DNA from: Escherichia coli O127:H6 str. E2348/69
GTDB lineage: Bacteria > Pseudomonadota > Gammaproteobacteria > Enterobacterales > Enterobacteriaceae
NCBI RefSeq assembly: GCF_000026545.1
Contig: NC_011601.1
Length of the DNA: 64,000 nt
Reading direction: 5' to 3' (one strand)
The stretch's first letter is position 1, and each line of letters begins with the position of its first letter. The position numbers and the translations under genes are program-made. The notes beneath the pieces are model-generated. The model saw only the letters and a list, made by a program, of their open reading frames with translations. It was not told the DNA's origin and did no database searches. Shown one piece after another: positions 41,110 to 41,333 of this stretch.

Positions 41110-41333
41110 TAAGAAAGAAGGGGGAGTCTCTTACTTTCGTTACCTGACGTTATTTATATATGTTACGGATAATTAATTTTATTTTATTTGTAAACTAAAT
41201 ATTAATTATCTTTAGGTGAATCGTTTCGCCTGAATAATATTTTTGTTTGTTTTTGCTTGCCTGTTTTTTTTCTTGATAAAAATCCCGATAACAATTTCTT
41301 TTTTAGTGATAATAAAATCAAAAAGGAAGACTT

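What the first reader, a model, noticed from the sequence alone, without database searches (positions are those of the whole stretch)
41110..41333. 224 bp extremely AT-rich leader of the island operon
The region between the araC stop and the first island gene is strongly AT-rich with A/T tracts and several TTGATA/GATAAT-like hexamers. It is the likely promoter/operator of the island and a plausible target for nucleoid-protein silencing of acquired DNA, and possibly the autoregulatory site of the fused regulator.
Basis: seen in the sequence. Interest (0 to 1): 0.4.

Follow-up and report, generated by a model that had tools for sequence, protein, structure and literature searches.

The report
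Promoter and operator of kinase-regulator operon
The AT-rich gap after araC is real, but only its last ~95 bases are conserved: they hold a likely promoter and a pair of 10-base repeats that probably bind the DNA-binding domain fused to the operon's own sugar kinase, which makes it an ordinary kind of control region whose operator had not been described.

Summary
Window 41110-41333 is the 224-bp araC-to-first-gene spacer of E. coli E2348/69, with 25.9% GC against 52.1% for the window.

The spacer has two parts.
- **Distal part (41110-41238):** not conserved between genera. It holds decayed araC 3' and terminator sequence.
- **Proximal part (41239-41333):** conserved from E. coli to Vibrio, Aeromonas and Dickeya, although four-fold degenerate sites of the adjoining gene are saturated. 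It contains:
  - two 10-bp direct repeats, TTTTTGTTTG and TTTTTGCTTG (41240-41259), and a third, weaker unit;
  - a TGA-N6-TC box (41272-41287), which is CRP-like in other genera but matches only 6/10 here;
  - a -10-like GATAAT (41308-41313), which puts the box centre near -40.5;
  - a Shine-Dalgarno sequence.

The repeats sit about 92-103 nt upstream of every HTH(DeoR)-PfkB fusion gene with this recognition helix that I examined, whatever genes follow it. Their invariant G changes where the recognition helix changes. The best reading is an activator-dependent promoter plus an operator for the fused regulator itself.

H-NS silencing is untested, and no nucleation motif is present. The "island" is syntenic in Klebsiella and Phytobacter, so it is old rather than recently acquired. 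Nothing here has been shown experimentally.

The parts
41107..41109 (+). araC stop codon (281-aa form of AraC)
   Evidence: ORF list and sequence. PGAP annotates araC as 846 nt in E2348/69. K-12 homology ends at 41113.
41110..41238 (+). Distal half of the spacer: AT-rich and not conserved between genera; araC 3' region
   Evidence: No conserved columns apart from scattered T/A in the five-genus alignment. About 80% identity to the decayed Nissle-type allele over 41105-41192.
41113..41138 (+). Weak hairpin; decayed counterpart of the strong hairpin that follows araC in Nissle-type E. coli. Klebsiella and Phytobacter carry a different strong hairpin at that place, which E. coli lacks.
   Evidence: The fold is -8.7 kcal/mol with z -0.3 here, against -21 (z -4.0) in Nissle, -17.5 in Klebsiella and -19.3 in Phytobacter.
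41168..41210 (.). Inverted repeat GATAATTAATTTT / AATATTAATTATC with a 17-nt spacer; function unknown, not conserved outside E. coli
   Evidence: the repeat finder I2, 13-nt arms, 92% complementary. Missing from the other genera.
41211..41234 (+). Hairpin followed by a U-rich run; candidate but marginal terminator for araC
   Evidence: Terminator-like hit. The fold is -11.7 kcal/mol, z -3.1. The U run starts about 5 nt after the stem, so it is not canonical.
41240..41249 (+). Direct repeat unit 1, TTTTTGTTTG (about -80 to -71 from the inferred start)
   Evidence: Invariant TTTTTG.TT in nine sequences from seven genera. Top leave-one-out PWM hit in every locus.
41250..41259 (+). Direct repeat unit 2, TTTTTGCTTG (about -70 to -61)
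   Evidence: The 23-nt block keeps 15-21/23 identity while four-fold degenerate sites are 20-35% identical.
41266..41275 (+). Weaker third unit, TTTTTTCTTG, overlapping the left half of the box
   Evidence: 9/10 match to unit 2. Present only in the enterobacterial and Vibrio group (shifted PWM hits).
41264..41271 (+). T8 tract; T7 in most other E. coli and in Klebsiella and Phytobacter
   Evidence: 12 copies have T7 (including EC958 and TUM9975). T8 is found in E2348/69 and one metagenome copy; L005 reaches 8 through a G-to-T change.
41272..41287 (.). Box CTTGATAAAAATCCCG with a conserved TGA-N6-TC core; possible activator (CRP-like) site centred about -40.5
   Evidence: The core is conserved in 12 of 13 sequences. 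Match to TGTGA-N6-TCACA is 6/10 here and 7-8/10 in nine of the other eleven sequences. A -10-like hexamer lies 20-22 nt after the box in 9 of 12.
41308..41313 (+). Candidate -10 hexamer GATAAT
   Evidence: Aligned with GATAAT (Klebsiella, Citrobacter), CATAAT (Phytobacter) and TATAAT (Photobacterium). There is no good -35.
41320..41320 (+). Inferred transcription start (7 nt after the -10); not measured
   Evidence: Inference from the -10 position only.
41324..41329 (+). Shine-Dalgarno sequence AGGAAG, 4 nt before the ATG
   Evidence: Read from the sequence. AAGG/AAAGG is conserved in the alignment.
41334..42566 (+). First operon gene: HTH_DeoR (residues 6-58) fused to a PfkB ribokinase-like domain (102-390)
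   Evidence: Pfam and NCBIfam TIGR02152, 300.9 bits against a cut-off of 299.65. PGAP names the ortholog 'putative transcription factor/ribokinase fusion protein RikA'.
41616..41630 (+). Internal AAAGGA-N6-ATG (Met99) just before the kinase domain; possible start of a kinase-only isoform
   Evidence: Sequence. The Met is conserved in 8 of 9 homologs. Salmonella RikA was recovered starting at M90 (PMC13432705).

Best explanation
The 224-bp spacer has two parts. The distal 130 bp (41110-41238) is leftover araC 3' sequence. It holds a decayed terminator hairpin, a second marginal hairpin and AT-rich filler. The proximal 95 bp (41239-41333) is the control region of the five-gene operon (HTH-PfkB fusion, DHDPS-like aldolase, TctC, TctB, TctA).

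I infer a sigma-70 promoter with -10 GATAAT at 41308-41313 and no usable -35. It would depend on a protein bound to the TGA-N6-TC box centred near -40.5, and CRP is the obvious candidate. Upstream of the box, at about -80 to -61, lie two 10-bp direct repeats (consensus YTTYYGTTTN, with invariant G at 41245 and 41255 on the same face of the helix) and a weaker third unit that overlaps the box.

These repeats are most likely the operator for the DeoR-type helix-turn-helix at the N-terminus of the operon's first protein. Two HTH domains of a kinase dimer would bind in tandem, and the kinase domain would serve as the sugar/ATP sensor. The direction of control is not determinable from sequence. I favour repression relieved by the substrate (about 60:40 over activation), because most DeoR-type regulators of catabolic operons are repressors (own knowledge).

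Shown here: conservation, fixed geometry, association with the fusion gene, and helix-operator covariation. Inferred: the transcription start, the identities of the binding proteins, and the direction of control.
For: 1. Conservation far above neutral. The 23-nt block keeps 15-21/23 identity to E. coli in Klebsiella, Phytobacter, Citrobacter, two Vibrio species, Aeromonas, Dickeya and Rahnella, while four-fold degenerate sites of the adjacent gene are 20-35% identical. The rest of the spacer does not align.
2. Specificity. A leave-one-out PWM puts the site first in every locus, at 25-37 bits against 20 or less for anything unrelated. On eight loci not used for training it ranks first in four and second in two, always 98-103 nt before the start codon.
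3. The motif persists in GC-rich surroundings (Dickeya, L065, L066), so it is not merely AT-richness.
4. Only the fusion gene travels with it. Downstream genes vary: DHDPS-like + TctCBA, DHDPS-like + DUF386 + MFS, TctCBA + Dak1 without DHDPS, or MFS only. Upstream neighbours vary too.
5. Covariation. Helix V(T/S)(K/R)ETIR goes with YYGTTT. The two lineages with Gly at the K/R position have A in place of the invariant G in both repeats: Photobacterium TTGQTIR with TTTTCACTT/TTTTCATTT, and L066 VSGRTIR with TTTCCATTTG/CTTCCATTTG.
6. The HTH domain is as conserved as the kinase domain (85 vs 81%, 62 vs 62%), so it is translated and under selection.
7. DeoR-type regulators are reported to use two imperfect direct repeats with 10-11-bp periodicity (PMC3870299) or non-palindromic ACAAAC-type sites (SugR, PMC2222622). 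The HTH scores best against SrlR, AgaR and GlpR models.
8. Promoter position. In Dickeya, Pectobacterium, Rahnella and Aeromonas the upstream gene is divergent, so a promoter must lie in the spacer, and only its proximal ~100 nt is conserved. A -10-like hexamer lies 20-22 nt after the box in 9 of 12 sequences, which puts the box centre at -40.5 to -42.5.
Against: - No transcription start, binding or expression data exist for this locus. No paper in the library mentions the E2348C locus tags I guessed for this region.
- A full -35/-10 PWM finds no consistent strong promoter anywhere in the spacers.
- The E. coli box matches the CRP consensus at only 6/10.
- The repeats are low-complexity. The exact 25-nt pattern also hit 32 unrelated T/G-rich sites in metagenomes.
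- In the only experimental study of a family member (Salmonella RikA), the protein recovered began at Met90 and lacked the HTH. A corresponding Met99 with its own Shine-Dalgarno sequence exists here.
- The covariation rests on two lineages. One distant subfamily (L064) has a T/G-rich block in a different register, and another (L067) has the half-sites inverted.
- An operator at -80 to -61 does not overlap the core promoter, so simple occlusion is not the mechanism.
Confidence: 0.6

Rival explanations
1. The spacer acts mainly as an H-NS (or StpA) nucleation region that silences a horizontally acquired, AT-rich operon. This was the first reader's second suggestion, and it is not exclusive of the operator model.
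For: GC is 25.9% over 224 bp, and the operon (about 0.40-0.50 GC) is less GC-rich than its flanks at about 0.55. Phased T tracts lie at 41240, 41250 and 41264. It is established knowledge that H-NS prefers AT-rich, curved DNA.
Against: No match to the TCGATAAATT nucleation motif with up to 2 mismatches inside 41110-41333, although 83 matches occur elsewhere in the window. The conserved T-rich part is a sequence-specific motif that is kept in GC-rich spacers of other genera. The segment is syntenic in Klebsiella and Phytobacter and diverges like the flanking genes, so it is not recent foreign DNA. I found no ChIP data for a strain that carries it.
Confidence: 0.3
2. The conserved T-rich repeats are not bound by the fused HTH. 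They would be an UP-element or intrinsically bent DNA, or the site of another regulator encoded elsewhere.
For: The repeats lie upstream of the core promoter, where UP elements and bends act. T tracts are in phase every 10 bp. The Salmonella homolog was seen only without its HTH.
Against: The invariant positions are the G residues and not only A/T. The motif becomes CTTCCGTTT in GC-rich genomes. It changes together with the recognition helix. No other regulator gene is consistently linked to it. The position, -80 to -61, is further upstream than the usual UP element at -40 to -60 (own knowledge).
Confidence: 0.2
3. The operon has no promoter of its own in E. coli and is transcribed by read-through from araC.
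For: The hairpin after araC is decayed in the island-bearing allele: -8.7 kcal/mol, no better than shuffles. No canonical terminator was found, and no strong consensus promoter is present.
Against: A second hairpin with a U-rich tail lies at 41211-41234. The proximal control elements are conserved in genera where the upstream gene is divergent or unrelated, so there they must act as a promoter. araC transcription is weak and autoregulated (own knowledge).
Confidence: 0.1
4. The conserved block is part of a structured or U-rich 5' leader RNA (a riboswitch or attenuator) made from a start site further upstream.
For: The best consensus promoter hit is upstream, CTGACG-18-GATAAT at 41144-41173. 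That would give a 154-nt leader containing the block.
Against: No Rfam family matches (best E-values 0.5-0.9, far below gathering scores). The upstream promoter-like site lies in the non-conserved part. The block is a direct repeat with no complementary partner and does not pair in the predicted fold.
Confidence: 0.05

Closest known systems
DeoR-family operators (AgaR, SrlR and GlpR type HTH; DeoR-type RhaR; SugR of Corynebacterium)
   Same: The HTH is PF08220 and scores best against SrlR, AgaR and GlpR models. [quoted passage not shown] It is non-palindromic and T/G-rich, which reads as ACAAAC on the other strand, like the SugR sites (PMC2222622). From memory, the E. coli AgaR operator consensus contains TTTCRTTTY repeats, close to CTTCCGTTT.
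   Different: The sensor domain is not the DeoRC sugar-phosphate-binding domain but a PfkB kinase. Binding has not been shown. The site lies at -80 to -61 rather than over the core promoter.
Salmonella RikA (STM3547), a DeoR-HTH/PfkB ribokinase (PMC13432705)
   Same: Same two-domain architecture, the GAGD catalytic motif, and an internal Met just before the kinase domain. PGAP gives the E. coli ortholog the RikA name.
   Different: The neighbours differ: glutamine amidotransferase, DMT transporter and phosphotriesterase in Salmonella, against a DHDPS-like protein and TctCBA here. That paper did not study DNA binding or the upstream region. I did not obtain the STM3547 sequence, so its identity to this protein and its upstream motif are unknown.
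Class II CRP-dependent catabolic promoters
   Same: Weak or absent -35, a -10 hexamer, and a TGA-N6-TC(A/C)C box centred at -40.5 to -42.5 in 9 of 12 sequences. The match to the CRP half-sites is 7-8/10 in nine of the eleven other sequences.
   Different: The E. coli box matches only 6/10 and lacks the first G of TGTGA in all sequences. CRP dependence and the transcription start are untested.
Enzyme-regulator fusions (BirA, NadR) and ROK repressors (Mlc, NagC) (own knowledge)
   Same: A DNA-binding domain joined to a sugar-kinase-type or ligase domain, so that substrate binding by the enzyme domain could set operator occupancy. The regulator would also control its own gene.
   Different: Different folds and HTH families. 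ROK repressors have lost catalysis, whereas the RikA kinase is active. No evidence yet shows that this fusion regulates anything.
H-NS-silenced AT-rich promoters of acquired islands
   Same: Strong AT bias relative to the genome and an accessory distribution: 571 of 5,426 complete E. coli genomes.
   Different: No nucleation motif. The position is old and syntenic across genera. The AT-rich conserved part is a specific motif.

Membership tests
DeoR-type operator | Two or more imperfect direct repeats with 10-11-bp periodicity | tested here: met
   TTTTTGTTTG and TTTTTGCTTG at 41240 and 41250. PWM hits shifted by 10 bp. Three units in L062. Criterion taken from PMC3870299.
DeoR-type operator | Genetic linkage to a gene encoding a DeoR-type HTH, independent of the other genes | tested here: met
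   Recognisable repeats lie 92-103 nt upstream of the fusion gene in 15 loci with four kinds of downstream content. L066 has them at 186 nt, L064 has them in a different register, and L067 has inverted half-sites.
DeoR-type operator | Operator changes together with the recognition helix | tested here: inconclusive
   Two lineages with K/R replaced by G in the helix have G replaced by A in both repeats. The sample is small.
DeoR-type operator | Physical binding by the regulator and release by an effector | not testable with these tools
   Needs EMSA or footprinting.
Sigma-70 promoter, class II activator-dependent | -10 hexamer at a conserved position | tested here: met
   GATAAT at 41308-41313, aligned with GATAAT, CATAAT and TATAAT in other genera.
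Sigma-70 promoter, class II activator-dependent | Activator site centred near -41.5 | tested here: inconclusive
   The geometry is met (-40.5 here, -40.5 to -42.5 in 9 of 12). The E. coli box matches the CRP consensus at only 6/10.
Sigma-70 promoter, class II activator-dependent | Mapped transcription start | not testable with these tools
   No data found.
Consensus (activator-independent) sigma-70 promoter | Good -35 and -10 with a 16-18-nt spacer at a conserved place | tested here: not met
   PWM scores of 6-12 bits at inconsistent positions. 2 hits against 1.5 expected.
H-NS-silenced xenogeneic DNA | AT content well above the genome average | tested here: met
   25.9% GC against 52.1%.
H-NS-silenced xenogeneic DNA | High-affinity nucleation motif TCGATAAATT | tested here: not met
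   No match with up to 2 mismatches in 41110-41333.
H-NS-silenced xenogeneic DNA | Recent horizontal acquisition | tested here: inconclusive
   Accessory in E. coli (571 of 5,426 genomes) and lower in GC than the flanks. However, it sits at the same site in Klebsiella and Phytobacter, with island proteins 63-90% identical against flanks at 77-88%.
H-NS-silenced xenogeneic DNA | H-NS occupancy and derepression in an hns mutant | not testable with these tools
   No ChIP data found for a strain carrying the segment.
Intrinsic terminator of araC | Stable GC-rich hairpin immediately followed by a U run | tested here: inconclusive
   The first hairpin is -8.7 kcal/mol, z -0.3. The second (41211-41234) is -11.7 kcal/mol, z -3.1, with its U run offset by about 5 nt.
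Known RNA families (riboswitch, leader, sRNA) | Match to an Rfam covariance model | tested here: not met
   Best hits have E-values of 0.48 and 0.91, far below the gathering scores.
RikA family (the downstream gene) | HTH_DeoR + PfkB architecture with the catalytic GAGD aspartate | tested here: met
   Pfam, invariant D351 in GAGDAF, TIGR02152 just above its cut-off, and the PGAP name.
RikA family (the downstream gene) | STM3547-type neighbourhood (amidotransferase, DMT transporter, phosphotriesterase) | tested here: not met
   Here the neighbours are a DHDPS-like protein and TctCBA.

The most novel reading that the evidence does not exclude
HTH-PfkB (RikA-type) fusions would be a widespread class of one-component regulators in gamma-proteobacteria. 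In them, an active sugar kinase has replaced the usual DeoRC sensor domain. The full-length dimer would bind tandem YTTYYGTTTN repeats about 95 nt upstream of its own gene, and substrate- or ATP-induced closure of the kinase would set operator occupancy. The same gene would also yield a kinase-only isoform from the conserved internal Met (Met99 here, Met90 in Salmonella), so that the ratio of regulator to enzyme is itself controlled.
Probability: 0.3. Interest if true: 0.6.

Novelty: new member of a known kind. Interest (0 to 1): 0.4.

Why it matters
The operon is carried by about a tenth of complete E. coli genomes, including EPEC E2348/69 and the pandemic ST131 strain EC958. Neither its substrate nor its regulation is known.

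The 2026 RikA paper left open whether the N-terminal DeoR domain of such kinases is ever made or has any function. This analysis answers with a concrete, testable operator: two 10-bp repeats with named guanines, at a fixed distance from the gene and conserved from Escherichia to Vibrio. It also shows that the HTH is under purifying selection.

The analysis corrects the picture of a recently acquired island as well. The segment is an old resident of the araC-yabI gap that most E. coli have deleted or let decay.

The control logic itself, a local regulator plus a possible CRP site, is conventional.

Tried and rejected
- **Rfam scan of 40900-41600.** It found nothing meaningful, so the RNA-element idea was dropped.
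- **H-NS nucleation motif search.** There was no hit in the region.
- **Exact-pattern scan of metagenomes with the 25-nt block.** It returned 13 near-identical E. coli copies and 32 unrelated T/G-rich low-complexity sites. The pattern alone is therefore not diagnostic, and the scan added no diversity.
- **Consensus and PWM promoter scans.** No consistent strong promoter emerged. The upstream hit CTGACG-18-GATAAT lies in non-conserved DNA and was not adopted.
- **AraC control.** I considered this because araC, or an AraC-family gene in Vibrio salinus, is the upstream neighbour in four loci. By eye, only a partial B-box-like TTATCCGTAA occurs on the minus strand near 41161-41180, with no TAGC box, and it lies in non-conserved DNA. 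In the other loci whose upstream neighbour was examined it is not an AraC-family gene. The idea was rejected.
- **Literature searches.** Searches for E2348C locus tags, for H-NS ChIP or start-site maps of E2348/69, and for ST131 with the transporter found nothing usable. A Vibrio alginate TTT-transporter paper proved unrelated.
- **AgaR operator consensus.** I could not find an open-access source for it, so that resemblance rests on memory.
- **Salmonella STM3547.** I could not obtain its sequence to test its upstream region.
- **Small ORFs in the spacer.** The ORFs at 41202-41360 (-) and 41257-41409 (+) were not pursued. They lie in AT-rich DNA and cross the conserved non-coding block.

Full report
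**What is there.** The window is E. coli EPEC E2348/69, at 100% identity over 6.7 kb. The finding's coordinates are exact. The araC stop codon is at 41107-41109, and the ATG of a 410-aa protein with an N-terminal DeoR-type HTH and a C-terminal PfkB kinase domain is at 41334. The 224-nt spacer has 25.9% GC against 52.1% for the window. Only 0.19% of 224-nt windows are as AT-rich, although three other troughs of similar depth, and one marginal one, occur in the same 64 kb. In DNA this AT-rich they are no more frequent than chance, with 2 promoter-like hits against 1.5 expected.

**Context.**
- *Boundaries against K-12.* Homology stops at 41113 and resumes at 46682. So 5,568 bp replace 106 bp of K-12, including the last 11 codons of K-12 araC.
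- *Content.* The segment encodes the fusion kinase, a DHDPS-like protein, TctC, TctB and TctA, followed by yabI.
- *Distribution in E. coli.* It is complete in 571 of 5,426 complete genomes, including ST131 strain EC958.
- *A decayed remnant.* Another roughly 486 genomes (Nissle 1917 type) carry a remnant. It has the same spacer with deletions and the first 38 nt of the fusion gene, followed by an IS630 fragment and three hypothetical genes.
- *Other genera.* The same five genes lie between a 281-aa araC and yabI in Klebsiella spallanzanii and Phytobacter massiliensis.
- *Divergence.* Island proteins are 63-90% identical between E. coli and these genera, and the flanking AraC, AraB, YabI and ThiQ are 76-88% identical.

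The segment therefore looks like an old resident of this gap that most E. coli have lost. It does not look like recently imported DNA.

**Anatomy of the spacer.** Alignment across genera splits it in two.

The distal part (41110-41238) does not align. It contains three features:
- A weak hairpin at 41113-41138 (-8.7 kcal/mol, no better than shuffles). It is the decayed counterpart of the strong hairpin that follows araC in Nissle (-21 kcal/mol). Klebsiella (-17.5) and Phytobacter (-19.3) carry a different strong hairpin at that place, which E. coli lacks.
- An E. coli-specific inverted repeat at 41168-41210.
- A second hairpin at 41211-41234 (-11.7 kcal/mol, z -3.1), followed after about 5 nt by a U-rich run.

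The proximal part (41239-41333) is conserved. It contains:
- the block ATTTTTGTTTGTTTTTGCTTG, which is two 10-bp direct repeats;
- a T tract;
- a box with an invariant TGA-N6-TC core (CTTGATAAAAATCCCG, 41272-41287);
- a -10-like GATAAT (41308-41313);
- a Shine-Dalgarno sequence (41324-41329).

**Strength of the conservation.**
- Against E. coli, the 23-nt block keeps 19-20/23 identity in the three other enterobacteria with the TctCBA operon (Klebsiella, Phytobacter, Citrobacter), 18-21/23 in two Vibrio species, and 15-17/23 in Aeromonas, Dickeya and Rahnella.
- Four-fold degenerate sites of the adjoining gene are only 20-35% identical, which means they are saturated.
- A leave-one-out PWM ranks the site first in every locus, at 25-37 bits against 20 or less for unrelated positions.
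- On eight further loci not used for training, the PWM ranks a site 98-103 nt upstream of the start codon first in four and second in two.
- The motif survives in GC-rich spacers as ATTTTTGTTTACTTCCGTTTT (Dickeya, Rahnella, Pectobacterium) or TTTCCGTTTATTTCCATTTC (L065). It is therefore not a by-product of AT-richness.
- The pattern is low-complexity, however. An exact-pattern scan of metagenomes also returned 32 unrelated T/G-rich sites. Position and linkage carry the argument, not the pattern alone.

**What binds the repeats.**
- *Linkage.* The only gene that always accompanies them is the HTH-PfkB fusion. Downstream content varies: DHDPS-like + TctCBA, DHDPS-like + DUF386 + MFS, TctCBA + Dak1 without the DHDPS-like gene, or MFS only. 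Upstream neighbours are unrelated or divergent.
- *The HTH is under selection.* It is as conserved as the kinase domain, while the linker is not. Its recognition helix V(T/S)(K/R)ETIRxDL is almost invariant among 120 close homologs.
- *Covariation.* In the two lineages where the K/R position is Gly, the invariant G of both repeats is A. These are Photobacterium (TTGQTIR) with TTTTCACTT/TTTTCATTT, and L066 (VSGRTIR) with TTTCCATTTG/CTTCCATTTG. Loss of a Lys/Arg together with loss of a guanine is chemically sensible, but the sample is two lineages.
- *Literature.* DeoR-type RhaR regulators are predicted to use two imperfect direct repeats with 10-11-bp periodicity (PMC3870299). DeoR-type SugR binds a non-palindromic ACAAAC...AACA site (PMC2222622). 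The HTH here scores best against SrlR, AgaR and GlpR models.

I conclude, at about 0.6 confidence, that 41240-41259 is the operator of the fused regulator. A weaker third unit lies at 41266-41275.

**Where the promoter is.**
- A full -35/-10 PWM gives no consistent strong promoter.
- In Dickeya, Pectobacterium, Rahnella and Aeromonas the upstream gene points away. A promoter must therefore lie in the spacer, and only its proximal ~100 nt is conserved.
- A -10-like hexamer lies 20-22 nt after the box in 9 of 12 sequences. This puts the box centre at -40.5 to -42.5, the geometry of a class II activator-dependent promoter.
- The box matches the CRP half-sites at 7-8/10 in nine of the eleven other sequences, but only 6/10 in E. 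coli. CRP is therefore a candidate and not a finding.
- With GATAAT as the -10, the start would be near 41320. The repeats would then lie at -80 to -61.

**Read-through and H-NS.** The post-araC hairpin is decayed in island-bearing E. coli, and the second hairpin is only marginal. Some read-through from araC therefore cannot be excluded. H-NS silencing remains possible on composition alone, but there is no nucleation motif in the region. I found no occupancy data for a strain that carries the segment.

**The caveat from experiment.** The one studied family member is Salmonella RikA (STM3547), an active ribokinase. It was recovered only as a form starting at Met90, without the HTH, from a construct carrying 278 bp of native upstream DNA. 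The authors did not examine DNA binding (PMC13432705). The E. coli gene has the equivalent Met99, preceded by AAAGGA-N6, and this Met is conserved in 8 of 9 homologs. Two isoforms are therefore plausible, and the regulator form may be scarce or conditional.

**Verdict.** The "acquired DNA silenced by nucleoid proteins" idea is untested and its premise is weakened. The control region is of a known kind: a local DeoR-type operator with a possibly CRP-dependent promoter. It is attached to an unusual regulator architecture whose operator had not been described in the literature I could search. Interest is moderate.

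Noticed in passing
window 41080-41113 (3' end of araC): AraC here is the 281-aa form, ending ...SEFRAGCE*. K-12 AraC has 292 aa. The last codons before the junction differ from K-12 by synonymous changes (CGT to AGG, GCC to GCA, GGT to GGA). Klebsiella and Phytobacter AraC also end at ...GCE*. This suggests that the araC 3' end travelled with the segment, or that the K-12 form is the derived one.
   Followed up: partly
L003 (Nissle 1917) 4001-5950, compared with window 41105-41371 and 46682 onward: There is a third allele of the araC-yabI gap, present in about 486 complete genomes. It has a decayed copy of this spacer with the repeat block deleted and the -10 mutated, then the first 38 nt of the fusion gene, an IS630 remnant and three hypothetical genes. 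It ends with a K-12-like araC 3' fragment and intergenic region before yabI.
   Followed up: partly
window 41264-41271: The T tract between the repeats and the box is T8 in E2348/69. It is T7 in EC958, in TUM9975 and in 10 of the 13 metagenomic E. coli copies. It is also T7 in Klebsiella and Phytobacter. In E2348/69 the operator-to-promoter spacing is therefore 1 bp longer.
   Followed up: partly
window 41616-41630: An internal AAAGGA-N6-ATG (Met99) lies just before the kinase domain. The Met is conserved in 8 of 9 homologs. It parallels the Met90 start seen for Salmonella RikA and suggests a kinase-only isoform.
   Followed up: partly
window 46507-46689: Only 8 nt of the K-12-type sequence upstream of yabI are kept, so yabI has lost its K-12 promoter region. 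No canonical terminator follows tctA, only a hairpin at about 46519-46545 without a T run. yabI may therefore be co-transcribed with the operon, or may use the TTGACC-17-CACAAT site at 46632-46660.
   Followed up: no
L057 (Dickeya), L059 (Pectobacterium), L056, L058, L062, L064: The fusion gene and its upstream control region act as a portable module with swapped cargo. Pectobacterium has TctCBA and Dickeya has DUF386 + MFS at the same glpG-glpE site. L064 has TctCBA + Dak1 and no DHDPS-like gene. The substrate of the pathway is unknown.
   Followed up: partly
window 41168-41210: A 13-nt inverted repeat, GATAATTAATTTT / AATATTAATTATC, with a 17-nt spacer. It is specific to island-bearing E. 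coli and absent from the Nissle remnant and from other genera. No function could be assigned.
   Followed up: no
window about 88, 12984 and 58094: Three other stretches of about 224 nt are as AT-rich as the finding, with minimum GC of 0.25, 0.27 and 0.23. I did not examine them.
   Followed up: no
L067 3900-4000: In a distant subfamily (helix VTERTIRRDL, with an adenosine deaminase downstream), the same TCCGTTT half-site appears as an inverted pair, AAACGGAAAG-N7-TCCGTTTTAG, instead of a direct repeat.
   Followed up: no
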